A stretch of 64,000 nt of DNA from a virus. Position numbers and translations under genes: made by a program. The notes under the pieces are model-generated. The model was given only the letters and a program-made list of their open reading frames with translations, searched no databases and was not told the origin of the DNA. This document shows, piece by piece, positions 40,053-55,644 of this stretch (position 1 is its first letter; each line of letters starts with the position of its first letter). The stretch is from the IMG/VR virus record IMGVR_UViG_3300046169_000120, positions 32,001-96,000 of that record; one strand, written 5' to 3'.

Positions 40053-40080
40053 TTGACTTTTGTTTGTCTCATGTCATACT
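40053..40080 (+). promoter_or_regulatory. First early sigma70-type promoter
   Basis: TTGACT-N16-CATACT with TGn extended -10. Confidence 0.7.
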
Positions 40081-40846: not shown

Positions 40847-41146
40847 ATGAGAAAAGTAACACAACAAATTAAACAAGCATTCGAACAACGCCAAGCCAAG
40901 TCGGTTGGCAACACCATGACAGACGGCAACGCTGTTTGGTTGCATGGCAATAAGATAGTGCAACGCACTGAGGACGGGCTTGTGCTTGGTAGCCTCGCAG
41001 GTTGGAACACGCCAACCACGAGAGAAAGAGTCAATGGAATAACAGGATTGGGCTTTCATCAGAAGAACTTCGAACCTATGCTAAACGGCAACATAGTTGA
41101 CCCATCCGATTGGTTCGCAGTCGAGCAAGGTCCCGCGTTCGGGTAA
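40847..41146 (+). CDS. Hypothetical early protein
   Basis: 99 aa, LHGNKI and GWNT.TT.ER.N motifs; TTGACT..TAGACT promoter directly upstream. Confidence 0.75.
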   Translation: MRKVTQQIKQAFEQRQAKSVGNTMTDGNAVWLHGNKIVQRTEDGLVLGSLAGWNTPTTRERVNGITGLGFHQKNFEPMLNGNIVDPSDWFAVEQGPAFG

Positions 41147-41151
41147 TGGCG

Positions 41152-41228
41152 TAAAGCCCTAAGCATCAACAACTTAGGGTAAACCGCCTACGAGAGTTTT
41201 GCGTAACTCGTTGGTATACAACAACTTA
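41152..41228. repeat. 77-bp element, copy 1 (extra 25-bp palindrome at 41283-41307)
   Basis: TAAAGCCCTA-N5-CAACAACTTA, 27-bp core with CCTACG, TAACTCGTTG-N5-CAACAACTTA. Confidence 0.9.
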
Positions 41229-41403
41229 CAACAAACCTAAAATCTTTCTTAAAATAAAACAACTTTTTTTTGCGTGTTTACATAAGTGCATGATAATCAA
41301 TAGTTTATGACACAAAGTTTTTTTGCTATCGGCTTGACTTGGGGGCGTTTTGGTAGTACTTTGTATATATAAGATTAAGTAAGACAATTAACCAAAAATC
41401 AAA

Positions 41404-41652
41404 ATGAAATTATCACAAAACCAAATAAACTCCCTCTTTTCAATACTTGCCGACGCTGATGAAGGTTGCAACGATCGTGCTTGCGACAACTTGGCAGAAG
41501 CCTTTGGTGGTGAGCTTGGACTTGGTGAAGTACTTTCAGTTCCTTCTGAGTTGTCATCCGAACAAGTTGTTTCTGAGATACAAGATCCTCAGTTATGGTG
41601 GGAATCGGGTTGCGTCGAAGCTTGTGAAGAAATACTTGAACTCGTAAGATAA
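41404..41652 (+). CDS. Hypothetical acidic early protein
   Basis: 82-aa ORF after a TTGACT promoter. Confidence 0.65.
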   Translation: MKLSQNQINSLFSILADADEGCNDRACDNLAEAFGGELGLGEVLSVPSELSSEQVVSEIQDPQLWWESGCVEACEEILELVR

Positions 41653-41689
41653 AGCTTGTACTTTTAATCTTTAACCCTATAATAAAATT

Positions 41690-41866
41690 ATGAATAAAAT
41701 TGAAGTTAGAATAAAAAAATGGTCAACCTATTGGTCTGTCAAGATCTTTGATACAGGAACTGAATATCCTAGAGTTAGAACTGCATCTAGTCTTGCGTAT
41801 CTTAATGCAATAATAAAAGATGAAAAGTTAAATTCTCCTCGCTTTAATGTTGTCAATCAGCATTGA
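41690..41866 (+). CDS. Hypothetical 58-aa early protein
   Basis: MNKIEVRIKKWSTYW..., ATG just after TATAAT. Confidence 0.6.
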   Translation: MNKIEVRIKKWSTYWSVKIFDTGTEYPRVRTASSLAYLNAIIKDEKLNSPRFNVVNQH

Positions 41867-41873
41867 TCCTAGC

Positions 41874-41948
41874 GGGCTAATAGCTCAGCGGTAGAGCACC
41901 GCGTTGATAACGCGGCGGTCGGTGGTTCGAATCCACCTTAGCCCACCA
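41874..41948 (+). tRNA. tRNA-Ile(GAU)
   Basis: GGGCTAA/TTAGCCC acceptor, CCGCG-TTGATAA-CGCGG anticodon arm, GGTTCGAATCC, encoded CCA. Confidence 0.95.
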
Positions 41949-41964
41949 CTTTAAAAAGATTGCA

Positions 41965-42041
41965 TAAGTTGTTGCATACCAGCAACTTGCGCAAAAAATC
42001 CTAGGGCCGGTTTGCGTAAGTCGTTGACAGTCAACGCTTTA
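41965..42041. repeat. 77-bp element, copy 2 (extra palindrome at 42096-42120)
   Basis: TAAGTTGTTG-N5-CAGCAACTTG, core with CCTAGG, TAAGTCGTTG-N5-CAACGCTTTA. Confidence 0.9.
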
Positions 42042-42181
42042 CAACAAAACAAATTATAATCGCAAATAAATTAAAGTTTTTTTCGCGGCTTTATGTAAGT
42101 GTTTGATTGATAGTTGTTTATGATAGTGAGATAATTGCAAATAAGTTTGACTTTGGCTAAAAAATAAACGATAGTAATAGT

Positions 42182-42340
42182 ATGACAGAAGAACTAGAAG
42201 AATTCATGACAGAAGAACTCGGCATCATTGATCGCCTCGGAACTGATCCTCTCGAAGGATTAGACCTTTTTGAGGATGTTGGCGGTAACATTTGGACTCT
42301 TGACCAAGTGCTAAAAGAGTTTAACGATAGCAAAAAATAA
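42182..42340 (+). CDS. Hypothetical 52-aa acidic protein
   Basis: MTEELEEFMTEELG..., directly after a TTGACT promoter. Confidence 0.6.
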   Translation: MTEELEEFMTEELGIIDRLGTDPLEGLDLFEDVGGNIWTLDQVLKEFNDSKK

Positions 42341-42387
42341 TTCGCTTTTTTCTTGCGTAAAATTAGGTTTAGTAGTAGTTTAGTAGT

Positions 42388-42558
42388 ATGGAAACAAGAT
42401 TAGAAAAGATCACAAGAATAATGAGTAAAGCTCGCCAACAAAAACGCCAAGTGTGGATTCTCGATGCACTCATCGCCATTTGGGATGCCGAAGCACTAAA
42501 AGGTTTCTGCGAGCAAGAAGATTACGACTACGGCTTTCATGCACAATTTGATCAATAA
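42388..42558 (+). CDS. 56-aa protein, paralog of 42861-43004
   Basis: RL.KIT..MSKAR...RQ.WIL..L..IWDAEA shared. Confidence 0.8.
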   Translation: METRLEKITRIMSKARQQKRQVWILDALIAIWDAEALKGFCEQEDYDYGFHAQFDQ

Positions 42559-42559
42559 G

Positions 42560-42715
42560 ATGATAAATGTATACAAAAACCCTAACTTTGACAATTGGTA
42601 CAATGTTGTACTAAACGGCAAAATAATTGACAATGCCCGCCACTATGCCAAGGCAATGGAATTGGCTAAGAAAATAAGCGTAAAACGTAAAGTTCCAATA
42701 CTTTCCTCTAAATAG
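42560..42715 (+). CDS. Hypothetical 51-aa protein
   Basis: MINVYKNPNFDNWYNVV...; stop codon lies inside element copy 3. Confidence 0.6.
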   Translation: MINVYKNPNFDNWYNVVLNGKIIDNARHYAKAMELAKKISVKRKVPILSSK

Positions 42716-42785
42716 CTGAACATCAACGACTTAGGGCAAACGGCCCAAGCGAGTTTTGCGTAACTCGTTAAATAACAACGCTTTA
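42709..42785. repeat. 77-bp element, copy 3
   Basis: TAAATAGCTG-N5-CAACGACTTA, core with CCCAAG, TAACTCGTTA-N5-CAACGCTTTA. Confidence 0.9.
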
Positions 42786-42860
42786 CAACAAAGTGAAAAT
42801 AATTTCACTTTTTTTTGCGTTAGGCTTGACACGATCCCGTTTTGGGTATAGGTTATACTT

Positions 42861-43004
42861 ATGAACGACAAACAAGAAAGACTACAAAAAATCACCGCAA
42901 CAATGAGTAAAGCTCGCCTCGAAAATCGTCAACATTGGATCTTACTTTTACTGTCAGAAATTTGGGATGCCGAAGCAATAAGAATTTGCAAAAATAATGC
43001 TTGA
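42861..43004 (+). CDS. 47-aa protein, paralog of 42388-42558
   Basis: MNDKQERLQKITATMSKARLENRQHWILLLLSEIWDAEA. Confidence 0.8.
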   Translation: MNDKQERLQKITATMSKARLENRQHWILLLLSEIWDAEAIRICKNNA

Positions 43005-43062
43005 CTTTTAATCACACTAATATATTCTTAAAATTATAAATTACTAAAACAAAGGACACAAA

Positions 43063-43677
43063 ATGAAAATTGCACAAAACAGAATGAACGAAATCGCTAA
43101 ATACTCAAGAAATTTAAATGCTCATAATAAAGGTGGACATGGCAAGTTTTTGGAAATGTTTCTTGCAGATCACTACAACTTCCCTCAATACGATCAATAT
43201 AAATCAAAAGTAGACTTTCCAAAAGAAATAGTAGAGCAAGGAAATGTACCCTCTGAATGGGTAGCGGATTGGGAAGTAAAATACTACAACATCAAATCCT
43301 CCGTGATAATCCTTGGTGATCTCGAAAGAAAAATGAAATGCTTAAAAAATGGACTTGTCATTGTAATTGGCTTTTATGATGGAACACCCGATAATCTTGT
43401 TGATATAAAATTCATTAAAGTTAAAGCTGACACATCTTTACTGAAAAACTACAATACTTGGAAAGAAGTTTCCCGCTTTGTTAAAAACAGGAATAATTCG
43501 ATTGAGTCGACTCGTGAAAAAGTAAAGCAAGTAAACTCAAACACTCGAAGTGAATTCTTTGTCAACAATCTCTCTCGCAAGTCAAGGTGGAGCAACTCGC
43601 AAGGAAAAATGCTTGGTGAAGCTCGTCAAGTTGCACTCTGTATCTCGACAAAAAATTTAAAAAGCCTCTCAATTTAA
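43063..43677 (+). CDS. Putative PD-(D/E)xK nuclease (restriction-endonuclease-like)
   Basis: HGKFLE...KVDFP...WEVKY......I.LGD ordering of E, D and ExK. Confidence 0.5.
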   Translation: MKIAQNRMNEIAKYSRNLNAHNKGGHGKFLEMFLADHYNFPQYDQYKSKVDFPKEIVEQGNVPSEWVADWEVKYYNIKSSVIILGDLERKMKCLKNGLVIVIGFYDGTPDNLVDIKFIKVKADTSLLKNYNTWKEVSRFVKNRNNSIESTREKVKQVNSNTRSEFFVNNLSRKSRWSNSQGKMLGEARQVALCISTKNLKSLSI

Positions 43678-43712
43678 GCTTTACAAACATCAAGAAATAC
43701 TTAATAATAATT

Positions 43713-43874
43713 ATGAAAACATGGACAAAAGATCAAGTGCTAGAATTCTTCGACTCTCATTGGGAAACAACTATGGCAGAAATATCTCTGCTCTCGGGTT
43801 GGTCAACCTCAGATTTAAAATCGGTTCTCATGGAATGGGTAAGTCATGAATTGAGTCCCGACCTAAACCCTTAA
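43713..43874 (+). CDS. Hypothetical 53-aa HTH-like protein
   Basis: TMAEISLLSGWSTSDLKSVL; stop codon inside element copy 4. Confidence 0.55.
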   Translation: MKTWTKDQVLEFFDSHWETTMAEISLLSGWSTSDLKSVLMEWVSHELSPDLNP

Positions 43875-43940
43875 ACATCAACAACTTAGGGCAAACAGCC
43901 CAGGCGCGTTTTGCGCAACTCGTTGGTATACAGCGACTTA
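43864..43940. repeat. 77-bp element, copy 4
   Basis: TAAACCCTTA-N5-CAACAACTTA, core with CCCAGG, CAACTCGTTG-N5-CAGCGACTTA. Confidence 0.9.
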
Positions 43941-44007
43941 CAACAAAAACTTAAAATAATTGCAAAAAAAAATTGACAAAGTTAGTTTTCTTTGATAGGT
44001 TGTTTAT

Positions 44008-44283
44008 ATGATTAAGAATAAAACATTCACTGCAAACATTAATGTCTGTTCTATTGATAGCAAGGAAAAACTTCCTTTATGGAACACAAACACAAATTCC
44101 TTTGTTGATACACACACGACAAACAACATTCTTTCTGTTGAAGCTGAAGACAAGCACGAAGCTAGACGCAAGTTTTTTGCTATGGTTCGAAAGTTGCAAA
44201 CAAAAGTTCAACTTCAAAGGGGAATGTTTCCAAAAGAAGGAGACCAAGCCGTTTTTTACATTAACCAAATATGGGAAAAATAA
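44008..44283 (+). CDS. Hypothetical early protein
   Basis: 91 aa; ATG 6 nt after TTGACA-N17-TAGGTT. Confidence 0.7.
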   Translation: MIKNKTFTANINVCSIDSKEKLPLWNTNTNSFVDTHTTNNILSVEAEDKHEARRKFFAMVRKLQTKVQLQRGMFPKEGDQAVFYINQIWEK

Positions 44284-44329
44284 TTCACTTTTTTCTTGCG
44301 TTAAACTAAAAATAGGATTAAATTAAGAT

Positions 44330-44497
44330 ATGATTAAGATTAAAGATGTAGTAGTAGATTACAAACGCAGAATCCTCCAAGTTGAGGGTTTCCAAAAAGA
44401 TGGAGCTGAAACTTTTGTTTTGGCAAGAATTTATCGCTCGCAAAAGCGTGTTGCCGTTCCTCTTTCATCAGTAAAAAAACACCCATTCTTTGCATAA
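44330..44497 (+). CDS. Hypothetical 55-aa protein
   Basis: MIKIKDVVVDYKRRILQV...; ATGATTAAG start. Confidence 0.6.
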   Translation: MIKIKDVVVDYKRRILQVEGFQKDGAETFVLARIYRSQKRVAVPLSSVKKHPFFA

Positions 44498-44723
44498 AAA
44501 AGCTTGCAAAGCTTAACCTTTTACCTTACTCTCTCATTATGGACAAAGAACAACAACTAAAAGAACTAATTGAAATTCATACGCCAATCGCAGATGCGGG
44601 AGTCGCAAGTGCAAAAATTCTTGTAATAAATGCACAAATTGAGCTTGACGAAATACAAGAAATTCGTCAGAATCAAATGACATTAACCTTGACAAACTAA
44701 ACAAAATAAACATAATTAACAAC

Positions 44724-45023
44724 ATGACTGAATCACAAAGACTAGAAATCATTCGTCAAATGGCGAGCAACAATAACGCTACAGAAATCTCTCCTGTTTT
44801 CAAATCGTTCGTGGAAGATCTTCGAGCAGACATTCTTGCAGAAGAATTGATTGTTGAACATGGCTTGCTCAAAGCAACCGACAGAGATGTTGAGGACGAA
44901 GTCTCACACCTTGCAAGTAAAGAAGATCGTTCGGACGAAGAAGATGACTTCGACAATGACGAAAATCTTCATGACATGGAAGCGGTCAGTCCAACCATGA
45001 AAGCAATCTTCGAGCAAGATTAA
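44724..45023 (+). CDS. Hypothetical acidic protein
   Basis: 99 aa; TTGACA-N16-CATAAT directly upstream. Confidence 0.7.
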   Translation: MTESQRLEIIRQMASNNNATEISPVFKSFVEDLRADILAEELIVEHGLLKATDRDVEDEVSHLASKEDRSDEEDDFDNDENLHDMEAVSPTMKAIFEQD

Positions 45024-45060
45024 GCTTTACTTTTCAACCAAAAATTGCTAAAATAGTATC

Positions 45061-45252
45061 ATGCAAATAAAAAGTAAAATACAAGTTCTCGCAGAAAATC
45101 TGCGAAAAGTAACTCAACAAAAGTTTGTGGCGATTCGCAAGGGTGATCACGAACAAGCACATAATCTGCACGGAATGCAAATAGAGCTTGACTTACAACT
45201 TCATCTGCTTGAGTCGAAGCTTCAAAAAAATAATCCTTGCCTTGTTTGTTAG
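45061..45252 (+). CDS. Hypothetical helical-hairpin protein
   Basis: 63 aa, ATG just after TAAAAT. Confidence 0.55.
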   Translation: MQIKSKIQVLAENLRKVTQQKFVAIRKGDHEQAHNLHGMQIELDLQLHLLESKLQKNNPCLVC

Positions 45253-45338
45253 TGGATATCACAACAATTTTAATCATTAGTTCAATAGTTGGCATCATCC
45301 GTATGATTCACGACCACTTCGGAAGCGGGGCGTGGTAG
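45252..45338 (+). CDS. 28-aa membrane peptide, paralog of 51730-51807
   Basis: MDITTILIISSIVGIIRMIHDHFGSGAW (GTG start). Confidence 0.75.
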   Translation: MDITTILIISSIVGIIRMIHDHFGSGAW

Positions 45339-45394
45339 GTTAATGTTTTGGGGGAATAGGTCACTCGCTGAGTATCGGAGTTTGACCTTTCTCC

Positions 45395-45471
45395 CATCTC
45401 ATTGATAATCAACGACTTACAGAAAATCGCCTAGGTGACTTTTGCGTAACTCGTTGATATTCAGTTGTTTA
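45395..45471. repeat. 77-bp element, copy 5 (at the convergence of transcription)
   Basis: CATCTCATTG-N5-CAACGACTTA, core with CCTAGG, TAACTCGTTG-N5-CAGTTGTTTA. Confidence 0.9.
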
Positions 45472-45746
45472 CATAACTTTTTGTGTTGGGCCCGCTTTGG
45501 TGCATTTGTGCATTTAATATAAATATATATCGGCGGTTCTATTTCTATTTGCTATTTTTGTATTTGCTATTTACTATTTATGTATTTAGCTTTGCAACTC
45601 TATTTACCAACGCAATTGTATAAGGTGAATGATCCACGGCTCTATTTAGGTTTGATTCGAGATTACGAATTGCGTTGACGATATAGTCGAGAGTACCCAC
45701 GATGCCCGCAGGTTCTCCGTTTTTTAGGATTTGATAACTTTTCATT

Positions 45747-46109
45747 TTAGTATTTTGCTTGTTCTTGTATGTTGTCTTGTCTAATGTCTACAAGTAATTT
45801 TTCGTGCAGTATGCCATCAAGATCAAATTGCTTTATCAACTTTGATATCTGTAATGGTGATTGATGGGCGAGTACATCATCATGCTTGCCCAATGGAACA
45901 AAGTCTCCACGCTGATTGAACACCGCAACTTCGTAAGTGTTTGGATGATCTCCATAAAAGAAATCTCCACCTTCAGTATTCGCAACAACGCTGAAAGCGT
46001 AACCATTGTCAAGAGTTAAGCTTGCTTGAACGCCCAAATCTTGGAGGCTTGCGTGAGGAGTGAATGTTAAGTCATCAAAGGTCTTCATGGTAGATGTAGA
46101 TTGGTTCAT
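45747..46109 (-). CDS. Hypothetical phage protein
   Basis: NGY..SVV......YG.....YEVAV...DDV motif pattern. Confidence 0.7.
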   Translation of the reverse strand: MNQSTSTMKTFDDLTFTPHASLQDLGVQASLTLDNGYAFSVVANTEGGDFFYGDHPNTYEVAVFNQRGDFVPLGKHDDVLAHQSPLQISKLIKQFDLDGILHEKLLVDIRQDNIQEQAKY

Positions 46110-46264
46110 TGTTATAGTTTAGTTGATTATGACGAACAAATGTGTTGTTGTCAATGTTTTTTTTCATGGTTGCTTCGCCAATAAAGAAATCAGTTTTATC
46201 TGTTTTGTCTTCTGAGCGAATCGCAATAACGCATCCATCGTTGCTTTTAGTTATGAGATACTTT

Positions 46265-46510
46265 TTAGTTGCGGTAATAGCTTGCATTTGTTTTGTTTTC
46301 GTATAGTGTTTCGTATGAGTGTGCTTTGTTGGCGATTGCTTTTAATGCTCCACCAACTACATTTAACATGGAAAACGCATCTTCGTCAAGCAAATTGTTT
46401 TCTTGCATTGGTTCGATGAGGTTGTCGTGAATGAATGCCATTGCCAATTCGTTTGCTTCGAGAGCATCCAAGTCTTGGACTTGCAAGTGGTGTGGATCGT
46501 TAAGACGCAT
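46265..46510 (-). CDS. Hypothetical protein
   Basis: 81 aa with AAGGAG SD. Confidence 0.65.
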   Translation of the reverse strand: MRLNDPHHLQVQDLDALEANELAMAFIHDNLIEPMQENNLLDEDAFSMLNVVGGALKAIANKAHSYETLYENKTNASYYRN

Positions 46511-46613
46511 GAGCTAGTATCTCCTTGTGTTTGAGTTTTCGGTGAATCACTTTTGTCTTGAGCTTGTGCGGTCGAGACTTGGTGAAGAGAATGTTTTTTC
46601 TTATCTTAATCAT
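46500..46613 (-). CDS. 37-aa highly basic peptide
   Basis: MIKIRKNILFTKSRPHKLKTKVIHRKLKHKEILAHAS, 6 nt after TTGACT-N16-CATAAT (46620-46647). Confidence 0.65.
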   Translation of the reverse strand: MIKIRKNILFTKSRPHKLKTKVIHRKLKHKEILAHAS

Positions 46614-46678
46614 GGTTTAATTATGGCAGACTATCTCGCAGAGTCAATAAAAAAATCAATAAAATTAAAAAAAAGTTA

Positions 46679-46755
46679 TAAGTCCCGCCGCATCAACGAC
46701 TTGCGCGAAATCGCCCAGGGCAGCTTTGCGTAACTGCCTGAAACTCAACGGGTTA
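46679..46755. repeat. 77-bp element, copy 6
   Basis: TAAGTCCCGC-N5-CAACGACTTG, core with CCCAGG, TAACTGCCTG-N5-CAACGGGTTA. Confidence 0.88.
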
Positions 46756-46926
46756 GTAGCCTAACCAATCGAGAACCTTCTGAGCTGAATACTCGACAAG
46801 GTCGCCAACCTCATCAAAAAATTCTTGCTTTCCCTGTTCGTCAATGCCGTGATCGTCAAGTTCTTGCATCGCTCGTGCATAACTAATAGTCATTGCTTCC
46901 GCTGATTCGTAATAAGTATCTGTCAT
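46753..46926 (-). CDS. Hypothetical 57-aa acidic protein
   Basis: MTDTYYESAEAMTIS...VLDWLGY; its TAA is the last 3 bp of element copy 6. Confidence 0.7.
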   Translation of the reverse strand: MTDTYYESAEAMTISYARAMQELDDHGIDEQGKQEFFDEVGDLVEYSAQKVLDWLGY

Positions 46927-47156
46927 AGCCTTAACCTTGAGTTAATAATTGCAAGAATTGATCGTAAACCTTTTGCTTGCTACCTTTTAGGTTGAATTCT
47001 TTTTTTATGATTGAATAGCAACTTGCTCCGCTACTCATCTTTAGTCCTCTGAGTTCAAGTCTAAGACCTCTGAGCAATGTCTTAAATCTGAACGCTTCAA
47101 TTTGTGTTGGTGTGTTTAATGTCATGATGTAATAATAGTTGAGTTGAGTTGAGTTG

Positions 47157-47885
47157 TCAAGAGTCAACCCCCTCTTTCACAAATCCTGTTGTATCTTTCT
47201 TTGCCATACCTTTCTCGATAAGACCAACAACAACACCTTGCTTGTCAAGAAACCGCAAATCATTTTCATCACCATTGACAACTTCGTAACCTTTCCAAGT
47301 CTTCGGGAGTTGATTGCGAAACACTACGGCAACATTGCCACCCATACCCAAAACCATTTCGCCAAGTTTTTGATTGGTTTCGGAAAGTGAAAAAGTCAAG
47401 TGGTAGTTACTTGGAAACTCTTTATCCTTACTGAGATACTGAGACATACGCTTGAACGACTTGGTATAATCATAAAATTGAGTTGACGGAAACTTGTCGA
47501 AGATTGTTTTAGGTTGCTCTTCGTTAAGGAATACAGATTCCCAAGCAATGTCACTTGTAAGATTGAGACGGAAAACGGATTGCATACCTTTTTTGGTTGC
47601 GGTCTTAATCGAACTAGAAATTTCTTTTGATAACTTGAAAAGGAAATCAATTTGCTTGTCGAAGAATAACTTTGTCTTTGCAATACGAGATGCTTGAACA
47701 GAATTCATTTGCCCACGCCCCGCTGTGTTGAGGCAACTTGCTGTACAACCTTTGCTTCGCCATTGGCAAACTTCAAAGCCCGAAAGATTTGCGGGAGCAA
47801 AGTGAATTCCCTTAGTAATGTAACCGAGCTTTTCACCCTTTTCAATTTTTTGGTTACCTGCGGTGAGTAGTGTTGTCTTAATCAT
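47157..47885 (-). CDS. GP88-family (radical-SAM-related) protein
   Basis: Cx6Cx3C, RLN.TSDI, FYDYTK, NYHLTFS, GDENDLRFLD; ATG 47885 after promoter 47893-47920. Confidence 0.8.
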   Translation of the reverse strand: MIKTTLLTAGNQKIEKGEKLGYITKGIHFAPANLSGFEVCQWRSKGCTASCLNTAGRGQMNSVQASRIAKTKLFFDKQIDFLFKLSKEISSSIKTATKKGMQSVFRLNLTSDIAWESVFLNEEQPKTIFDKFPSTQFYDYTKSFKRMSQYLSKDKEFPSNYHLTFSLSETNQKLGEMVLGMGGNVAVVFRNQLPKTWKGYEVVNGDENDLRFLDKQGVVVGLIEKGMAKKDTTGFVKEGVDS

Positions 47886-47958
47886 GTATCCAATTATGAC
47901 AGATAAACTACCCAAGTCAACCCCTAAAATGCAGAAAAGTAAAAAAAGTTTTGTTGTG

Positions 47959-48035
47959 TATCTTGCTGTGACTCAACGACTTGCGCGAAATCACCTAGGC
48001 CCGTTTTCCCTAACTACCTGGCCTTCAACAACTTA
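47959..48035. repeat. 77-bp element, copy 7
   Basis: TATCTTGCTG-N5-CAACGACTTG, core with CCTAGG, TAACTACCTG-N5-CAACAACTTA. Confidence 0.88.
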
Positions 48036-48056
48036 CAGAATATCATTTGCAGACAC

Positions 48057-48081
48057 AAAAAAGCCCCCCAAATGGGGGGCT
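48057..48081 (-). terminator. Intrinsic terminator
   Basis: AGCCCCCC..GGGGGGCT stem plus U-run on the minus strand. Confidence 0.85.
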
Positions 48082-48106
48082 AGTTGGTAACCCTAAACCA
48101 ACTTGA

Positions 48107-48337
48107 TCAACTCACCGACCTTTTAAAAGTTTTGTCGGCACAAGTTGCACGAAGGATGTGCCTCCGAGCTACTCTACGATTTGAGCCATTCATGTCCGAG
48201 AACATAACATGGCGAGAGGTAACGCTATTGATTTTAGCGGAGAACGCTTTGCGTTGCTCACCTTTTTTGACAAGAAGGGAAACGAAACGACCCTTGAGAC
48301 TTTCAACTACATTTTGGAGTTTTGGTTGCTTTTTCAT
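48107..48337 (-). CDS. Hypothetical basic protein
   Basis: 76-aa ORF ending before the terminator. Confidence 0.65.
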   Translation of the reverse strand: MKKQPKLQNVVESLKGRFVSLLVKKGEQRKAFSAKINSVTSRHVMFSDMNGSNRRVARRHILRATCADKTFKRSVS

Positions 48338-48379
48338 AATTTTAATTTTGTTTTAGGTTTGTGTTATGGTTTGTTGTGA

Positions 48380-49135
48380 TTAAGATGCGTTTGCAACTTG
48401 AGAAGTTAATCCGACTTGAGAGTCAAGAACTCCATGCAATGCAAGCGAACGACTTGGTAATTGTGTGATTCCACCTTTAAGAATGTGAGTGAATCCGTTG
48501 TAAAGCGAGTGCATGGTTCGAGGAGAAAAATCGTCATGTTCGGGTTTGTGCCATTGCTCGACAACATCAGCAATCTTTGCTTTGCTTATCGCTCCATTTT
48601 GGAATGCACGAATAACAAGGTCATGGGCTTGCTCGTTGTCAAGCTCATACTCTTTGTATGCCGAGATGCGTTGCTCGTCACTTGCCCATGTCTCAGTCAT
48701 CTTGCCGAGAGTCTTTGCAATCACTTGAGACAAGTCACGCAAAATGTGAGTGGTGTGCCGTCTTGCAAGAACAACTTCGTTGGTGAAGATAAGGTTTGAA
48801 CAAACGAATGGAGCGTTGCCCATGCACAATCCCGCAGGAAAACATTTGTCGTGCGAGTTGCGAAGACCAACAATAGTTCCACGCTCGTCATTGTCAACAC
48901 CTGTGTTCTTAACATGAAACAAGCCAAAGTAGCGTTGACCATAGCGATGAAGAGAGTGATAAGTTTTAACAATTTCCCAACCATTGCCTTGCATTTGTTT
49001 TTGCACACGATTAACAAGGTCAGCATGACCAATTGGTTGCCAAGACTCAGTCGCTTCGGGAGTTGTTACATTCTCAACATCCTTGAAGGAAGATTCTTTG
49101 GTTGCACATACGGAGAGATTGATTTCTTTTGTCAT
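48380..49135 (-). CDS. DUF932-family protein
   Basis: PI.H, G.RYFG, GLRNSHD, G...FVCSNL, RRHT, SLYNGFT; ATG 49135 likely. Confidence 0.8.
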   Translation of the reverse strand: MTKEINLSVCATKESSFKDVENVTTPEATESWQPIGHADLVNRVQKQMQGNGWEIVKTYHSLHRYGQRYFGLFHVKNTGVDNDERGTIVGLRNSHDKCFPAGLCMGNAPFVCSNLIFTNEVVLARRHTTHILRDLSQVIAKTLGKMTETWASDEQRISAYKEYELDNEQAHDLVIRAFQNGAISKAKIADVVEQWHKPEHDDFSPRTMHSLYNGFTHILKGGITQLPSRSLALHGVLDSQVGLTSQVANAS

Positions 49136-49341
49136 AATTTTTTTAGTGTTGTGAGTTTCTGTCTTTGATGAGTTAATTATACTAAAGTTTTTGTTTTCTG
49201 TCAAGCTTTTTTCTTTGCGATTAAGTTTTTTTTTATTCGACTAATTTTTTTCTTGTTCAGTTATCCTTATCTTTATGTATACAAGTATGTCAGAAAATGA
49301 AGTGAAGTCAACCTTTTTTTTCATGAAATGAAAGATTGTTG

Positions 49342-49418
49342 TAAGTTGTTGATGGTCAACGAGTTGCGCAACACGGGCCTAGGCGATTTTCTGTAAGTCG
49401 TTGTGTATCAAGGGAATG
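49342..49418. repeat. 77-bp element, copy 8 (core inverted relative to the other copies)
   Basis: TAAGTTGTTG-N5-CAACGAGTTG, CCTAGG at core positions 12-17, TAAGTCGTTG-N5-CAAGGGAATG. Confidence 0.9.
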
Positions 49419-50029
49419 TGGGCCTCTCGAGGAAATCTCGAGAAGCCCAACCCTTAACCAATCAAGCTCGTTTCTCTAAATCGTAGAGTTGATTCAGCAA
49501 GATGCCGTGAGCAAGCTTGCGAGCGAAATAACTTCCGCCCTTCATGCCTCGCATTTCTGCTTGAGCAAGTTGAAACCCAATCGTACGCAATTTTGCGTTA
49601 AGTTTAGCAATTCCGTTTGTGGACATAATTACCCTTTCGTTGGTTGTGAATAATGGTGATAAGCCCTTTCGGCTTCCGCTTGCGATTCAAAGGAAACGCT
49701 TAGTAAATCTTGAGTCGTATCAAGATGATAGTTTGTTGGCGACTCCTCAAAATACAAATCCCATGTATCTGCTTCTGAGTCGTAACTTGGTTTGTCTAAT
49801 GGTTCGCCAACACAAACCGCATCAATGTATTCTTTTCGTTCCATAATTTATTGTCCCCACATTTGGTTGTACATCTCAACATCAGTTTGGTTTTCTTGAA
49901 CCTCGAAATCTTCGTGTTCTTTGCCCAAACTGACTGAGCAATTGTCGCTAGTAATGATGATTCTACCTCCACCAACTATTGCTAGTCGTGCTTGTAAATC
50001 GTTAATGATGTTTTGTAGTTCTTCCATAA

Positions 50030-50449
50030 TCAATACCAACAAGAATAGTAGATTCTGTGCTTGTTGTCAAGTGCTTTTCTTGCACTTTCTACAAACATCA
50101 AGTCGTTGCTCTTATACCAATACTCGTTTTCGGGAAATGGTTCGTCATCTTCATTGTTCCAAAAGTACGAGTCACTTCCCCAAAAGAATCCGTTCGCTTC
50201 GGGAAACTCAAAATTGTTGATTGCATACTCCAAATCGTCAATGTCTTGTTTGGTCAACTGCAATTCAACGCAATTAAAATCTCCCATTTCATCACCTTCA
50301 GTTTGTGCATTTGGACAACCCTTGTTTTCCCAAAGTTGTTGCATCCAACCTTGTAGTCGATTGTGCTTTCGCCACTCCATCAGTTGAACATCGTCATCCG
50401 AGTTGCGTTTGCGTGGTGGTCGTGAGTATGCGTATTGGTCTAATCCCAT
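50030..50449 (-). CDS. Conserved phage hypothetical protein
   Basis: MGLDQY..WRKHN.L.GW..NC..L...D..GFF.G..YY.CW pattern. Confidence 0.8.
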   Translation of the reverse strand: MGLDQYAYSRPPRKRNSDDDVQLMEWRKHNRLQGWMQQLWENKGCPNAQTEGDEMGDFNCVELQLTKQDIDDLEYAINNFEFPEANGFFWGSDSYFWNNEDDEPFPENEYWYKSNDLMFVESARKALDNKHRIYYSCWY

Positions 50450-50838
50450 AGTTTTTTCCTTTCGTTTATAGTTGTGCGGATTGCATTGATCCTTCCATCA
50501 TAGCTTCTCTTTCGAGACTTTGCAAGTCTATAATGATGTCTGCGAGAACTTCTTCTGCTGATTGAGTAGTGAAACCTTTGACTCCAACTTGTTGACCTTT
50601 CTCAAGATTCATTCTGTCGAATGGATCTGCGTAGCGAAGATTGCCACTTACGATTTGTGCGATTTCTTGTCTAATTTGTGCTTGATTCATAATTACTTGC
50701 TCCAATCTACTTCGTTAAATTCAACCTCTCCATGCCCGAAAATCATCTCAAACATTTTTATCAAGTCGTTTGGAGATAAGTAGTCGAACTCATCGAGGAT
50801 TTCTTTTTTTAGTTGTGTTTTTGTCAATTGGTCTGTGT

Positions 50839-51228
50839 TCATAATACTGCTAATACTTGTTTGGGTTCTAGTCTGACGGCAATAGCATAGTCTACCATCT
50901 GTTGAGTGTCGGTGTCAACAAAATTCTTGTGCTTGTAGGGATTGTATGTGACAGGTCGAGCCGTTGGATGTGAGTCGATCCACTCGCCCGTTTGCCAATT
51001 CTCAAGATAACCATGCACACCCGCATGAACATTTTTGCGTTGTTCTGCTAGAACACGCTTGCGTCCCGATTGACTCACCTTGAAAGTGCAACTATGCATC
51101 GCAAGATTCTTTGCGTGAAGTTTAACCAATCCATTTTGACGAACACTCCAACAATCTCTGTGAAGATTCTTGTAGACAAATACAGGTCGATTGTAGTTTA
51201 TCTTGTATCGAGGTTCGTCCTTAATCAT
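50839..51228 (-). CDS. Conserved phage hypothetical protein
   Basis: VY.NLH..CWSVR..G.V, F.VSQSGR.RV..EQRKNVHA, V.YNPYK; promoter at 51235-51262. Confidence 0.8.
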   Translation of the reverse strand: MIKDEPRYKINYNRPVFVYKNLHRDCWSVRQNGLVKLHAKNLAMHSCTFKVSQSGRKRVLAEQRKNVHAGVHGYLENWQTGEWIDSHPTARPVTYNPYKHKNFVDTDTQQMVDYAIAVRLEPKQVLAVL

Positions 51229-51482
51229 AAGTTTAGTATGACAGAATTTTAAGTGATGTCAACCCTCTTTTTTAAGGTCGTCAACAAATTTAGCCAAACG
51301 CTTGAGTTCGGCAATGGCGTTTTGTTTGCAGGCGAAACCTGCTTTTTGGCTTTGCAAAATTTCTACACAAATCGAAACTGTTGCTTGCCATGAGGGAGTT
51401 GCATTAATTGTTTTCATAAATACAAGTATGACAGGCTGAGCGTGCAAGTCAATACTTTTTTTCGTGTTTTTAAAGATTGTTG

Positions 51483-51559
51483 TATCTTGTTGTGGTTCAA
51501 CAACTTAGGTAAAACTACCTACGCGATTTTCGCGCAACTCGTTGATATTCAACACTTTA
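51483..51559. repeat. 77-bp element, copy 9
   Basis: TATCTTGTTG-N5-CAACAACTTA, core with CCTACG, CAACTCGTTG-N5-CAACACTTTA. Confidence 0.9.
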
Positions 51560-51729
51560 TAACATTTTAATTTTTATGTTGATTTTTTAATTTTTATTGT
51601 TTTTTATAGTATCTTTTATTTTATACTATTATTTATTAGTTTATTATTTCTTATTTATGTCATTGTTATTTCCCCCCTCTGTATTTGATAAGAATGATAT
51701 TTGATATTTGTGTATTTGGTGTTTGGGGT

Positions 51730-51807
51730 TTACCAATTGCGAATATCGTCAATCATGCGGATTACTCCTACTATGCTACTAACTATTAGGATTGTAGTTA
51801 CGTCCAT
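51730..51807 (-). CDS. 25-aa membrane peptide, paralog of 45252-45338
   Basis: MDVTTILIVSSIVGVIRMIDDIRNW. Confidence 0.75.
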   Translation of the reverse strand: MDVTTILIVSSIVGVIRMIDDIRNW

Positions 51808-52410
51808 TTATTGTGTTTTGCTGTATTGTTTCCAAATTTCAAGATCAAGATCAGTGACGCTCTTGCCAAGTTGGCGAGCTATGTTTTTAAAGATGTTCGC
51901 AAAATAGTAATAGGTGTTCTCGTTGCTTGGCGTGCTTTTTGGTGCATCTGCATACCCTTGGTCACGAAGAAAACGCAGTATGTGTGTGTCAAGCATCGGC
52001 TCATCAAAGTCCTCACGACTATGAGAAAGAAAGAATCGTGCGGTCTTAAGTCCAATCCCTGGAACCTCCAACAAACGATTCAAGGATACACTCTGGAGAT
52101 CTTTAATTTTAGACACAGCAACATAAGAATTGTATCTCTGAGCATACGGACTCAGCTTTGCCCAATGCATGATTTCATTTAGACGCCCGAGTTTAATTAA
52201 AGCACGAATGGAATCAAAAGGAGATGAATCCTTCATGAGTTCTGATTTGCGATGCTTTGATGCAACATCTTTTGCTCGTTCAAGAAACACCTCTAATTTG
52301 GGTGCTTCGATTGAACTTTTTTTGCCAGCGACATTGATGCAAAATAGTATGAACTCTTGTAGTTCAGATTGTGTTCTGTTGTAATTTGTTACTTCGGCGG
52401 GATTAATCAT
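51808..52410 (-). CDS. HhH DNA glycosylase (Ogg-like)
   Basis: LLEVPGIGLKTARFFL hairpin with Lys, LDTHILRFL with Asp, LDLEIW. Confidence 0.8.
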   Translation of the reverse strand: MINPAEVTNYNRTQSELQEFILFCINVAGKKSSIEAPKLEVFLERAKDVASKHRKSELMKDSSPFDSIRALIKLGRLNEIMHWAKLSPYAQRYNSYVAVSKIKDLQSVSLNRLLEVPGIGLKTARFFLSHSREDFDEPMLDTHILRFLRDQGYADAPKSTPSNENTYYYFANIFKNIARQLGKSVTDLDLEIWKQYSKTQ

Positions 52411-52428
52411 ATCTTTTTTTGTGTTAGG

Positions 52429-52683: not shown

Positions 52684-52719
52684 GATTACTAGTATGACAG
52701 ATTGTTTGTACTTGTCAAC

Positions 52720-52770: not shown

Positions 52771-52791
52771 AAGGGATGATTAAGAAATAGG

Positions 52792-55619: not shown

Positions 55620-55644
55620 CAATATATTGATAATCAATGACTTA
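55620..55644. promoter_or_regulatory. Solo 25-bp dyad IHF-consensus palindrome
   Basis: CAATATATTG-ATAAT-CAATGACTTA, 20 bp upstream of a leftward TTGACA. Confidence 0.6.

What the first reader, a model, noticed from the sequence alone, without database searches (positions are those of the whole stretch)
41152..51559. Nine 77-bp elements of invariant geometry partition the early region into small-gene cassettes
Seen: copies start at 41152, 41965, 42709, 43864, 45395, 46679, 47959, 49342 and 51483. Each is exactly a 25-bp imperfect palindrome (consensus TAASTCGTTG-N5-CAACRACTTA), a 27-bp core and a second 25-bp palindrome, with no indels although the sequence drifts. The core is roughly SGCAAAA...TTTTGCG with CCTAGG/CCCAGG/CCTACG/CCCAAG at positions 11-16 (12-17 in copy 8, so inverted). 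The palindromes are 52 bp apart, about 5 helical turns, and their inner halves are best conserved. Copies 1 and 2 have a third palindrome exactly 79 bp after the second. Several copies abut or contain the stop codon of the preceding gene (42715, 43874, 46753) or follow the tRNA CCA. Intervals of 0.7-2.1 kb carry unrelated cargo: tRNA-Ile, a nuclease-like gene, GP88, DUF932 and micro-ORFs. Known: YAANNNNTTGATW is the IHF consensus, and two inverted copies sharing the W give exactly this 25-mer. Inference: a nucleoprotein site in which two IHF-like bends frame a core bound or cut by a second protein. It could be a cassette-shuffling recombination site (loosely analogous to integron arrays or T4-type PeSL cassettes), a DNA-entry/packaging signal near the genome end, or a promoter enhancer. 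I recognise no recombinase in the window.
Basis: partly seen in the sequence, partly recalled or inferred. Interest (0 to 1): 0.88.

Follow-up and report, generated by a model that had tools for sequence, protein, structure and literature searches.

The report
Double-palindrome boundary modules of phage cassettes
Nine rigidly built 77-bp DNA repeats between the small early genes of an uncultured marine phage look like docking sites for a DNA-bending protein placed just upstream of host-type promoters, and they are also the places where related phages gain and lose small gene cassettes.

Summary
A profile scan of the whole 125.7-kb genome finds exactly nine copies, all in a 10.4-kb early region. 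Aligned with 113 copies from related IMG/VR contigs, they give 77 columns without a single gap.

They are not RNA or cruciform structures. For the whole hairpin, the 25-bp palindromes and the central core hairpin, base pairing is lower than in column shuffles. Each palindrome is two inverted copies of about TCAAcgAcTTA, which overlaps the IHF consensus but is more specific than it. The palindromes recur in 48 of 80 related loci, around cores of lineage-specific length.

The elements lie between a gene end and an A/T-rich tract plus a sigma70-type promoter: 6 of 9 here, 89 of 139 in the family. Three in-register element-to-element cassette indels were found. There is no Tyr or Ser recombinase and no HU/IHF gene; a RecA-like gene is present.

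The same 12-mer occurs 26 times in the cultured Stenotrophomonas phage DLP6, before stem-loop plus promoter units.

Best reading: protein-bound boundary/upstream modules of early cassettes, PeSL-like in role.

This scan has noted the same family before in at least eight other genomes. I found no paper that describes it.

The parts
41152..41228 (+). Element 1 (25-bp palindrome, 27-bp core, 25-bp palindrome). It follows ORF 40847-41146 (Kyano_Gp96 family).
   Evidence: (97.1 bits). An RNA-library contig joins 41225 to 42039, that is element 1 to element 2 in register.
41965..42041 (+). Element 2, 16 nt after tRNA-Ile (41874-41948).
   Evidence: (89.0 bits).
42709..42785 (+). Element 3. It contains the stop codon of ORF 42539-42715. 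TTGACA at 42826-42831 starts 40 bp after the element; then 17 bp, TAGGTT, 6 bp and the ATG at 42861.
   Evidence: 97.0 bits. The promoter was read from the sequence printed.
43864..43940 (+). Element 4. It contains the stop codon of ORF 43713-43874. TTGACA at 43973-43978 starts 32 bp after the element; then 17 bp, TAGGTT, 6 bp and the ATG at 44008.
   Evidence: 99.1 bits. The promoter was read from the sequence printed.
45395..45471 (+). Element 5, at the point where the plus-strand and minus-strand early gene arms converge. No outward promoter was found. It is a hybrid of two elements that flank a 1.19-kb cassette in relative L043.
   Evidence: (85.6 bits).
46679..46755 (.). Element 6. It contains the stop codon of minus-strand ORF 46753-46926. 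The minus-strand promoter TTGACT-16-CATAAT (46647-46620) has its -35 box starting 31 bp beyond the element.
   Evidence: (94.7 bits).
47959..48035 (.). Element 7, upstream of the GP88 gene. The minus-strand promoter TTGACT-16-CATAAT (47920-47893) starts 38 bp beyond the element. A GC hairpin with a T run at 48081-48062(-) lies on its other side.
   Evidence: (87.6 bits). An RNA-library contig (47535-48266) bridges it.
49342..49418 (-). Element 8, the one inverted copy, upstream of the DUF932 gene unit. The minus-strand promoter TTGACT-16-CATACT (49311-49284) starts 30 bp beyond the element.
   Evidence: (76.2 bits on minus, 68.1 on plus). An RNA-library contig (48842-49599) bridges it.
51483..51559 (.). 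Element 9. The minus-strand promoter TTGACT-16-CATACT (51452-51425) starts 30 bp beyond the element.
   Evidence: (87.8 bits).
41283..41307 (.). Weak solitary palindrome ('third palindrome' of copy 1), 79 bp after the second palindrome. It overlaps a GATAAT box.
   Evidence: 12.1 bits; shuffled genomes give 3-6 hits of 8 bits or more.
55620..55644 (.). Weak solitary palindrome, 20 bp upstream of the -35 box of the minus-strand promoter 55599-55571.
   Evidence: (13.1 bits).

Best explanation
**What it is.** The nine elements belong to a widespread family of double-palindrome modules. The modules mark the borders of small early-gene cassettes in a large group of uncultured marine phages.

**Binding (inferred).** They act as double-stranded DNA bound by protein, not as folded RNA. 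Each 25-bp palindrome is two inverted copies of an 11-12-bp unit (about TCAAcgAcTTA). The unit overlaps the consensus of the DNA-bending protein IHF. The most likely binder is a host IHF/DNABII-type architectural protein. I put that specific point at about 0.4. The alternative is an unidentified sequence-specific protein of host or phage.

**Core (inferred).** The two palindromes clamp a core whose length is fixed within a phage lineage (27 bp here, 16-30 bp elsewhere). In this lineage the core is itself a conserved dyad, G-NN-AAA-NN-GCC-NNN-GG-NNNN-TTT-NN-C. That suggests a second, lineage-specific partner.

**Position (shown).** The module lies between the end of one early transcription unit and the A/T-rich tract plus sigma70-type promoter of the next.

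**Function (inferred).** The bound, bent complex shapes the upstream DNA of that promoter, by activation, insulation or shut-off.

**Recombination.** Because the modules are dispersed direct repeats, they are crossover points at which cassettes are deleted, inserted and exchanged between related phages. The junctions are shown. Ordinary homologous or short-homology recombination as the mechanism is inferred (the phage has a RecA-like gene).
For: **Real and geometry-constrained**
- Nine sites only in the genome.
- 120 distinct copies align in 77 columns with no gap, although orthologous copies are only 57-96% identical to the window's. That is no better than their 77-bp flanks, at 55-96%.

**Not a base-paired structure**
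- Whole hairpin: 65.8% of cells paired against 68.3% in shuffles.
- 25-bp palindromes: 73.0% against 74.5%.
- Central core hairpin: 66.5% against 70.8%.
- All 500 shuffles reached the observed value in each case.
- Variable arm positions do not compensate. Columns 22 and 56 are C/C in 73 of 120 rows.
- No T run follows the arms.

**Motif conserved across lineages**
- Logo: T15 C16 A17 A18.. A21. T23 T24 A25.
- 48 of 80 loci that encode a GP88 relative carry at least 7 palindromes. They occur in pairs spaced 41/42, 46/47, 48-50, 52 or 55 bp, nearly constant within a contig.

**Promoter link**
- In the window, 6 of 9 copies have a TTGACA/TTGACT box starting 30-40 bp beyond the element.
- 89 of 139 unique family members have an outward promoter within 80 bp, against 23 of 139 with an inward one.
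- Of 369 unique double palindromes, 162 have an outward promoter within 90 bp. The distances pile up at 20, 26, 30-31 and 40-41 bp.

**Asymmetric unit used in another arrangement**
- Cultured Stenotrophomonas phage DLP6 has 26 copies of ATCAASGACTTA (reversed-pattern control: 0).
- They are mostly direct pairs 25 bp apart. In 14 of 14 forward clusters each is followed by a GC stem-loop, TTTACT and a TATAAT-like box.
- The paper lists them as PHIRE 'promoters in groups of two' (passages read).

**No phage-encoded binder found**
- tblastn at E below 0.001 finds only RNR (both subunits), PhoH and dCMP deaminase shared with DLP6.
- No PF00216 gene.
- No DNA-binding Pfam domain in 30 early-region proteins.

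**Crossover points**
- Window copy 5 is a clean hybrid of two L043 elements that flank a 1.19-kb cassette.
- A contig in run X15 joins 41225 to 42039. It skips 813 bp, which equals the spacing of elements 1 and 2.
- L046 and L105 differ by about 257 bp between two elements.
- A RecA-like gene lies at G000:C1:18303-18902.
Against: - No binding has been shown, and the host is unknown. MAG bins that hold related terminase genes carry labels of five phyla.
- The strict IHF consensus fits only 3 of 36 half sites here and 44 of 480 in the family.
- The positions IHF leaves free (CGAC, especially A21) are conserved. That points to a more specific reader than IHF.
- Two overlapping inverted IHF-type units in 25 bp cannot both be occupied (my reasoning from what I recall of the IHF-H' structure).
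- Palindrome spacing differs between lineages by non-integral helical turns (41 to 55 bp). There is therefore no universal bend phasing.
- The motif is not enriched in S-PM2, P-SSM2, phiM12, HTVC008M or RB49.
- Only 44-64% of elements have a promoter by my scan. Many early promoters in the window have no element, and copy 5 has none.
- Promoter distances are not independent data, because orthologues share them.
- About half of the indels between close relatives do not touch an element: 4 of 8 for window against L043, and 4 of 9 for L046 against L105.
- A small left-hand core hairpin (columns 26-29 with 35-38) shows weak covariation: 63.4% against 59.9%, with 0 of 500 shuffles as high. Some nucleic-acid pairing in the core is therefore not excluded.
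Confidence: 0.55

Rival explanations
1. Operator array of a phage-encoded regulator, with no IHF involved. A phage protein (two different ones for palindrome and core, or one multidomain complex) binds the elements to switch early transcription off or on.
For: - The unit is more specific than the IHF consensus: CAA-NN-A-N-TTA, with CGAC favoured.
- The core is a conserved dyad in this lineage and changes with lineage, as expected for a co-evolving phage factor.
- A weak extra palindrome overlaps a -10-like box at 41283.
- Close relatives by GP88 (L044, 89% identical) use a different element type: TTGGCA..AAAATCGCC..CGATTT..TGCCAA.
Against: - No DNA-binding Pfam domain in 30 early proteins, and no PHROG function in the 10 tested.
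- No gene within 10 kb of GP88 tracks the presence of palindromes. The best candidates are 22 of 40 against 2 of 20, and DUF932 at 40 of 40 against 14 of 20.
- DLP6 uses the same 12-mer yet shares only RNR, PhoH and dCMP deaminase at tblastn E below 0.001.
- Sequence searches would miss small, fast-evolving proteins, and genes further away were not profiled.
Confidence: 0.25
2. Dedicated site-specific recombination sites (integron-attC-like or att-like). The core is cut and rejoined by a recombinase, and bending proteins act as accessory factors.
For: - Three in-register element-to-element cassette indels.
- Different cassette order and content between relatives in the plus-strand arm.
- The architecture of bender sites flanking a dyad core recalls att sites (my knowledge).
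- An earlier scan note (e1-6163156, not tested by me) reports an IS110/TasR-like DEDD protein elsewhere in this genome.
Against: - No Pfam Phage_integrase or Resolvase match at E up to 1 in six frames of the genome.
- The junctions are not at one fixed point. One lies in the shared TTACAACAAA at the right edge; one lies somewhere in a nearly identical interior of more than 50 bp.
- Other indels have breakpoints in promoter repeats with no element, for example 42864/44276 in repeat D9, and 46926/47120.
- A RecA-like gene and more than 50 bp of near identity between neighbouring elements are enough for homologous exchange.
- According to that note, the TasR-type guides spell a site that the phage genome lacks.
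Confidence: 0.1
3. RNA-level element: a transcription terminator or attenuator, an RNase III-type processing site or a 3' stabiliser. It would be formed when the palindromes are transcribed, as with the stem-loop of PeSLs.
For: - Position at the 3' ends of transcription units.
- The consensus core reads AAACCGCCC-A-GGGCGGTTTT.
- In other lineages and in DLP6 the core is a GC-rich inverted repeat, in DLP6 a predicted terminator.
- Weak covariation in a 4-bp core hairpin.
- Some RNA-library contigs end at element borders: 43947 and 49421 (contig ends are not transcript ends).
Against: - Pairing is below the shuffled controls for all three larger helices.
- Central core pairs form in only 38-61 of 120 copies.
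- No T run follows.
- Separate canonical GC hairpins with T runs stand beside elements, at 48081-48062 here and before type-B elements in L047 and L061.
- RNA-library contigs bridge elements 7 and 8 (DNA carry-over is not excluded).
- A rigid length with no indels in the loop regions is unusual for hairpins.
Confidence: 0.1

Closest known systems
PeSL (promoter-early stem-loop) cassettes of T4-type phages: Arbiol et al. 2010, PMC2839356 (passages read); Comeau et al. 2014, PMC4122927 (abstract read)
   Same: - Repeated composite motifs in a hyperplastic region of small ORFans.
- A sigma70-like early promoter with an A/T-rich upstream tract, preceded by an inverted-repeat element at the end of the upstream gene.
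- Indels between close relatives with crossovers inside the repeats.
   Different: - The upstream part is not a variable polyG/polyC stem-loop. It is a fixed 25+27+25-bp module with conserved sequence columns and no pair covariation.
- The phage is not T4-type: it has a DnaE-type polymerase and a distant terminase.
- The genes are leaderless instead of having Shine-Dalgarno leaders.
- Only a subset of promoters carry the module.
- The PeSL paper contains neither 'IHF' nor 'palindrom'.
IHF binding sites upstream of phage early promoters (lambda pL, Mu Pe) and in attP (H', H1). These examples are recalled, not read here. The consensus WATCAANNNNTTR occurs in 24 papers of the library (listing only).
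   Same: - An asymmetric unit of about 13 bp with TCAA and TTA/G blocks 4 bp apart.
- Placement roughly 65-140 bp upstream of sigma70 start sites.
- Use as an accessory site next to a second protein's site.
   Different: - Units are paired head to head in a 25-bp palindrome, four per element.
- The 'free' positions are conserved.
- The strict consensus is met by 3 of 36 half sites.
- No binding data and no known host.
'Phage promoters' of Stenotrophomonas phage DLP6 found with PHIRE (Peters et al. 2017, PMC5349666; passages read)
   Same: - The identical 12-mer ATCAACGACTTA, 26 copies, in pairs.
- They stand in front of gene clusters, immediately before a GC-rich inverted repeat and a sigma70-type promoter.
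   Different: - In DLP6 the two units are direct repeats 25 bp apart and co-directional with the genes, and they are followed by a predicted intrinsic terminator.
- Here they are inverted pairs on both sides of a core.
- The paper treats them as promoters. Their position before a terminator argues against that (my reading).
RIP/RIB elements (BIME-1) of E. coli: REP palindromes flanking an IHF site at 3' ends of transcription units (recalled, not read here)
   Same: - A mosaic of GC-rich palindromes and IHF-type sites.
- Dispersed, and located between transcription units.
   Different: - The order is inverse: here IHF-like palindromes flank the GC-rich or dyad core.
- They are phage-borne, next to promoters, and have a rigid length.
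- There is no sequence relation.

Membership tests
PeSL | [quoted passage not shown] | tested here: met
   - 6 of 9 window copies have TTGACA/TTGACT 30-40 bp beyond the element, after an A/T tract.
- 89 of 139 family members have an outward promoter within 80 bp.
PeSL | Adjacent stable stem-loop (often polyG/polyC) that works as a terminator or attenuator | tested here: not met
   - Pairing is below the shuffled controls for the arms, the whole element and the central core.
- No T run follows.
- Terminator activity itself could not be tested.
- Relatives L063 and L120 do have polyG/polyC words.
PeSL | Lies in a hyperplastic region and flanks small ORFans | tested here: met
   - Most of the 30 small ORFs scanned in Pfam have no family.
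- Gene content differs between close relatives.
PeSL | Indels between close relatives with crossovers within the repeats | tested here: met
   - Window copy 5 is a hybrid of two L043 elements.
- An 813-bp in-register skip is seen in run X15.
- Other indels lie at promoter repeats.
PeSL | Mini-circles formed by exchange between flanking repeats | not testable with these tools
   Only Logan contigs were available, with no raw reads.
PeSL | Carried by T4-type myoviruses | tested here: not met
   - DnaE-type polymerase, and a terminase at most 27% identical to Firmicute phage terminases.
- Only four genes are shared with the T4-like phage DLP6.
IHF binding site | Match to WATCAANNNNTTR | tested here: inconclusive
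   - Strict consensus: 3 of 36 half sites (window), 44 of 480 (family).
- TCAANNNNTTR: 16 of 36 and 205 of 480.
- CAANNNNTTR: 22 of 36 and 314 of 480.
- The logo's strongest columns coincide with TCAA and TTA.
- Whole window: 18 strict matches against 8.7 expected.
IHF binding site | Bound and bent by IHF | not testable with these tools
IHF binding site | Host (or phage) encodes IHF/DNABII | tested here: inconclusive
   - The phage has no PF00216 match at E up to 1.
- The host is unknown: MAG labels of five phyla.
- The host of DLP6 is a gammaproteobacterium; that it has IHF is my knowledge, not tested here.
Integron attC / att-type site-specific recombination site | Cognate tyrosine or serine recombinase | tested here: not met
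   No PF00589 or PF00239 match in six frames of the 93%-complete record.
Integron attC / att-type site-specific recombination site | One fixed crossover point in the core | tested here: inconclusive
   - One junction lies in TTACAACAAA at the right edge.
- One can be placed only to the nearly identical interior.
Intrinsic (rho-independent) terminator | GC-rich hairpin followed by a U run | tested here: not met
   - Central core pairs form in 38-61 of 120 copies.
- No T run follows the arms.
- The consensus scan marks no canonical site in eight of the nine elements.

The most novel reading that the evidence does not exclude
The modules are the sites of a dedicated cassette-exchange machine. Host IHF-type benders on the four half sites fold the DNA around a lineage-specific phage protein that recognises the dyad core. 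That protein pairs or cuts two modules. Early genes would then be shuffled by a recombinase of no known family, in an integron-like system of lytic phages that also doubles as promoter control.
Probability: 0.1. Interest if true: 0.85.

Novelty: new variant of a known kind. Interest (0 to 1): 0.6.

Why it matters
**Control of early genes.** How large uncultured phages control and insulate their many tiny early genes is largely unknown. So is how they keep exchanging those genes, which are often host-takeover and anti-defence functions.

**A testable grammar.** This family offers a concrete, conserved grammar for both processes:
- a unit of about 12 bp, reused as inverted pairs (marine phages) or direct pairs (DLP6);
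- a lineage-specific core of fixed length;
- a set distance to a host-type promoter.

**A cultured system.** Because the same 12-mer occurs in a cultured phage-host pair (DLP6 with Stenotrophomonas maltophilia), the binding protein and its effect on transcription can be tested at the bench now.

**Practical uses.**
- The elements give an easy sequence marker for early regions and cassette borders in metagenomic phage contigs.
- They correct the reading of the DLP6 'promoters'.

Tried and rejected
- **Close cultured relatives.** megablast of 41000-52000 and blastn of one element against 50,697 phage records gave nothing useful. The terminase and polymerase have only distant hits.
- **Rfam.** The region holds only tRNAs and a manA RNA; no family covers the elements.
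- **Host.** Related terminase genes sit in MAGs labelled Halobacteriovorax, Flavobacteriaceae (three), Verrucomicrobiales, Neomarinimicrobiota and Saccharibacteria. The labels are inconsistent, probably mis-binning, so I draw no host from them.
- **Polarity.**
  - Columns 22 and 56 are C/C on the window's top strand in 78 of 106 copies of 13 relatives, whatever the gene direction.
  - They are C/C 35 times and G/G 35 times when oriented by promoter.
  - Other lineages have symmetric inner half sites.
  - I therefore treat the asymmetry as inherited from a founder copy, not as a strand signal.
- **Helical phasing between the two palindromes.** Rejected as a universal rule, because the spacings 41/42, 46/47, 50, 52 and 55 bp all occur.
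- **Gene that tracks the palindromes.** None was found within 10 kb of GP88. Type-A-specific ORFs mostly reflect clade relatedness.
- **Enrichment of indel breakpoints at elements.** 4 of 8 (window against L043) and 5 of 9 (L046 against L105) touch an element within 25 bp. My rough chance estimate is about 30%. This is suggestive only. I dropped the rows that lie outside the element-bearing part, and many pairs share events.
- **Motif in other phages.** TCAASRASTTA is at control level in S-PM2, P-SSM2, phiM12, HTVC008M and RB49. This neither helps nor hurts the IHF reading.
- **Read laying.**
  - Parts with low RNA-library depth (for example 42902-43468) and contig ends near elements are not evidence.
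  - Joints with short sides (42034 to 48908; 42034 to 51531 with 29 other letters between) are probably relatives' elements.
- **Literature.** Four searches found no description of this family: plus the motif strings, which led only to DLP6. Supplements were not opened, so the DLP6 and PeSL supplementary tables may hold more.

Full report
**1. The observation**

- The nine 77-bp copies are at the stated coordinates and split cleanly into 25 + 27 + 25 bp. A repeat search recovers eight of them as one family. The ninth, 49342, differs because it is inverted.
- A position weight matrix built from the nine copies was run over both strands of the whole 125,691-bp genome. The window is C1:32001-96000 of that genome. 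The scan finds these nine places at 76-99 bits on their best strand and nothing else above -14.7 bits. The family is therefore confined to 10.4 kb.
- I pulled relatives from IMG/VR in two ways:
  - a degenerate pattern taken from the inner arms gave 42 stretches;
  - the GP88 protein that lies between copies 6 and 7 gave 166 confirmed relatives, of which 80 loci were kept.
- The matrix finds 4-10 copies in each of 14 of the 80 GP88 loci, in the same region.
- The 9 window copies plus 113 distinct copies from those loci align in exactly 77 columns without a single gap. Seven columns are invariant and 22 more are at least 90% conserved.
- Orthologous copies are only 57-96% identical to the window's. 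That is no better than the 77 bp on either side, at 55-96%. What is conserved is a set of columns and the length, not the sequence as a whole.

**2. DNA site or folded RNA?**

The element is a nested palindrome, so I tested every plausible helix for compensatory change on the 120 distinct rows.

| Helix | Cells paired, observed | Cells paired, shuffles | Shuffles reaching the observed value |
|---|---|---|---|
| Whole-element hairpin | 65.8% | 68.3% | 500 of 500 |
| Two 25-bp palindromes | 73.0% | 74.5% | 500 of 500 |
| Central core hairpin (columns 30-37 with 41-48) | 66.5% | 70.8% | 500 of 500 |
| Two 4-bp side hairpins in the core | 63.4% | 59.9% | 0 of 500 |

- Only the side hairpins exceed the shuffles. 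The left one has GGGC/GCCC, CGCG/CGCG and GGGA/TCCC variants. This is weak, and the tool warns that related sequences can give such a result without structure.
- The strongest non-adjacent mutual information is between the mirror columns 22 and 56. They carry the same base (C/C 73, G/G 28), not complementary bases.
- No T run follows the arms.
- Real GC hairpins with T runs stand next to elements as separate features.
- I conclude that the conserved symmetry is read as sequence on duplex DNA. That means a protein site. Small core hairpins are not excluded.

**3. Anatomy**

- Each half site has the logo T15 C16 A17 A18 c g A21 c T23 T24 A25. The inner halves are stronger than the outer ones.
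- The TCAA and TTA blocks fall on the specified positions of the IHF consensus WATCAANNNNTTR.
- The fit is partial:
  - strict consensus: 3 of 36 half sites in the window and 44 of 480 in the family;
  - TCAANNNNTTR: 16 of 36 and 205 of 480.
- The 'free' positions are conserved, especially A21.
- The core is itself a dyad centred on column 39. G27, A30-32, G35, C36, C37, G41, T46-48 and C51 are conserved, with CCTAGG or CCCAGG in the middle.
- A palindrome matrix finds all 18 palindromes of the nine elements in the genome, plus:
  - one strong solitary copy at G000:C1:99421 (20.9 bits), just upstream of a minus-strand promoter;
Shuffled genomes give 3-6 hits of 8 bits or more.

**4. A wider family**

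- With the 25-bp palindrome matrix, 48 of the 80 GP88 loci carry at least 7 palindromes, almost always in pairs.
- The pair spacing is nearly constant within a contig but differs between lineages: 41/42, 46/47, 48-50, 52 and 55 bp.
- In most lineages the core is GC-rich and often a dyad, for example GGCGGGCCGGCCCGCC. The A/T-tract core seen here is the version of one clade.
- Some near relatives by GP88 (L044, L047, L061) have a different 35-bp element instead: TTGGCA..AAAATCGCC..CGATTT..TGCCAA. It stands after a canonical terminator and before an A/T tract and promoter. One copy is a hybrid of the two types.
- Others (L063, L120) have polyG/polyC words, as described for PeSL stem-loops.
- The slot 'gene end, repeat, A/T tract, promoter' is therefore constant in this phage group, while what fills it changes.
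- The palindromes are the most widely shared filler. The core length is under lineage-specific constraint. Since 41 to 55 bp are not integral helical turns, there is no universal phasing between the two palindromes.

**5. Position relative to genes and promoters**

- The early region has a plus-strand arm (about 39.9-45.4 kb) and a minus-strand arm that meet at copy 5. Many sigma70-type promoters end 6-7 nt before the ATG. An earlier scan note on this genome said the same.
- Copies 3 and 4 are followed by CAACAAA, an A/T tract, TTGACA (40 and 32 bp after the element), 17 bp, TAGGTT, 6 bp and the ATG.
- Copies 6-9 have TTGACT 31, 38, 30 and 30 bp beyond their left edge, reading leftwards.
- Copies 1 and 2 have a repeated T-rich/TTGCGT block and a TTGACT promoter about 105 bp away.
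- Copy 5 has none.
- In the family:
  - 89 of 139 unique instances have an outward promoter (at least 9 of 12 consensus positions) whose -35 box starts within 80 bp, against 23 of 139 with an inward one. My criteria miss TAGGTT-type boxes, so this is a lower bound.
  - Over all lineages, 162 of 369 unique double palindromes have such a promoter within 90 bp. The distances pile up at 20 (11), 26 (11), 30-31 (40) and 40-41 (22).
  - This ladder of about 10 bp hints at face-of-the-helix placement. Orthologues share distances, so I treat it as suggestive.
- Many early promoters in the window have no element. The module is thus not part of every promoter. It marks the borders of groups of one to nine small genes.

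**6. Cassette turnover**

- Gene order in the minus-strand arm is largely collinear among the clade. The plus-strand arm varies a great deal.
- Against the closest relative, L043 (91% mean identity over the aligned blocks), the element-bearing part has eight indels of at least 100 bp.
  - One is exact. L043 has two elements 1,192 bp apart where the window has copy 5.
  - Copy 5 equals the left flank and left outer arm of the first element and the right outer arm and right flank of the second. The interior of more than 50 bp is nearly identical in all three.
- L046 and L105 differ in the same way by about 257 bp.
- In public data, a contig of an RNA-library run (X15) joins 41225 to 42039. It skips 813 bp, exactly the spacing of elements 1 and 2, with 10 shared letters at the joint.
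- Other indels have their ends in promoter repeats without an element: 42864/44276 in repeat D9, 46926/47120, and 51275/47120's counterpart 51275/51467.
- Four of eight indels (window against L043) and five of nine (L046 against L105) touch an element within 25 bp. My rough chance expectation is about 30%. Rows outside the element-bearing part were dropped by hand.
- The genome has no Pfam tyrosine or serine recombinase and no HU/IHF gene in six frames. It does have a RecA-like gene.
- This pattern is what Arbiol et al. describe for PeSLs: dispersed regulatory repeats that serve as homology for excision and insertion of ORFan cassettes. It does not call for a dedicated recombinase, although one of an unknown family cannot be excluded.

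**7. A cultured phage with the same unit**

- A full-text search for the unit's letters led to the paper on Stenotrophomonas phage DLP6 (PMC5349666). Its terminator table shows TCAACGACTTA directly before GC hairpins.
- Its text reports 25 PHIRE 'promoters', 22 of them 'in groups of two in front of a gene cluster' (passages read, figures and supplements not seen).
- In the record KU682439, ATCAASGACTTA occurs 26 times: 23 forward and 3 reverse. The reversed-pattern control gives 0.
- In all 14 forward clusters a second copy, exact or slightly degenerate, lies 25 or 26 bp upstream in direct orientation. The pair is followed by a GC-rich inverted repeat, TTTACT-like letters and a TATAAT, TATACT or TATGAT box.
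- There the strict IHF consensus (A-ATCAA-CGAC-TTA) is met.
- Our phage and DLP6 share only ribonucleotide reductase (both subunits), PhoH and dCMP deaminase at tblastn E below 0.001.
- The same asymmetric unit thus serves as direct pairs in one phage and inverted pairs in another, unrelated one, and no shared candidate regulator is visible. This fits a conserved host factor with an asymmetric site, as IHF is, better than a dimeric helix-turn-helix repressor.
- It is not proof:
  - small phage proteins evolve beyond tblastn reach;
  - the unit is not enriched in S-PM2, P-SSM2, phiM12, HTVC008M or RB49;
  - the marine phage's host is unknown.

**8. Conclusion and comparison**

- The most likely reading (0.55) is a protein-bound boundary and upstream module of early-gene cassettes. 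Two palindromic docking sites, for an IHF/DNABII-type bender (about 0.4) or another specific protein, clamp a lineage-specific core. The module sits at a set distance from a host-type promoter. As a dispersed repeat it doubles as the crossover point for cassette gain and loss.
- It works like a PeSL but fails two of the PeSL criteria: there is no selected stem-loop, and the phage is not T4-type.
- It resembles IHF sites but meets the consensus only in part.
- I therefore class it as a new variant of a known kind.
- Earlier notes of this scan describe the same family in at least eight other genomes and reach the same reading. They are AI notes, not independent evidence, and I consulted them after my own tests. 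None of them mentions DLP6.
- I found no paper that describes the family.

Noticed in passing
window 52788-52989 (-): A manA RNA motif (Rfam RF01745, 67.9 bits against a gathering score of 55.2). It stands as its own unit behind the exact promoter TTGACA-17-TATAAT at 53088-53060.
   Followed up: no
window 39660-39911: A perfect 126-bp tandem duplication just before the plus-strand early arm. Contigs of two DNA runs (X1, X4) skip one copy (39751 to 39879), so copy number varies in nature.
   Followed up: partly
window 38005-38641, inside ORF 37798-38901 (-): Four repeats of 165-171 bp (80-93% identical) inside a 367-aa ORF that has no PHROG match: a repeat protein next to PhoH.
   Followed up: no
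window 40000-56500: Sigma70-type promoters end 6-7 nt before the ATG of most small early genes (leaderless layout). Several use TAGGTT or CATACT as the -10 box.
   Followed up: partly
window 46931-47125 (-): A 64-aa micro-gene with its own promoter is absent from L043 and from contigs of runs X15 and X16 (joint 46920 to 47120). In other relatives its homologue sits at a different place, between the homologues of 49629 and 50030.
   Followed up: partly
L044, L047, L061 (for example L061:7202-7243): A second element type, TTGGCA-yr-AAAATCGCC-ygC-CGATTT-CG-TGCCAA, fills the same slot (after a terminator, before an A/T tract and promoter) in phages whose GP88 is 79-89% identical to the window's. 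L061:1582-1623 is a hybrid of the two types.
   Followed up: partly
L063, L120: Related contigs carry many polyG/polyC words (for example 29 copies of one 11-mer in L120), like the stem-loops described for PeSLs.
   Followed up: no
G000:C1:99421-99445 (beyond the window's end): A solitary strong palindrome (20.9 bits) next to an A/T tract and a minus-strand TTGACA promoter: a half module outside the array.
   Followed up: no
KU682439 (DLP6), for example 45311-45347, 74440-74476, 121604-121640: The published 'phage promoters in groups of two' are direct pairs of ATCAACGACTTA placed before a terminator-like stem-loop and a sigma70-type promoter. They are probably upstream protein sites, not promoters.
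   Followed up: yes
L154-L160 (genome contigs): Contigs that encode terminases 52-88% identical to this phage's sit in MAGs labelled with five different phyla. This looks like phage contigs mis-binned into bacterial MAGs.
   Followed up: no
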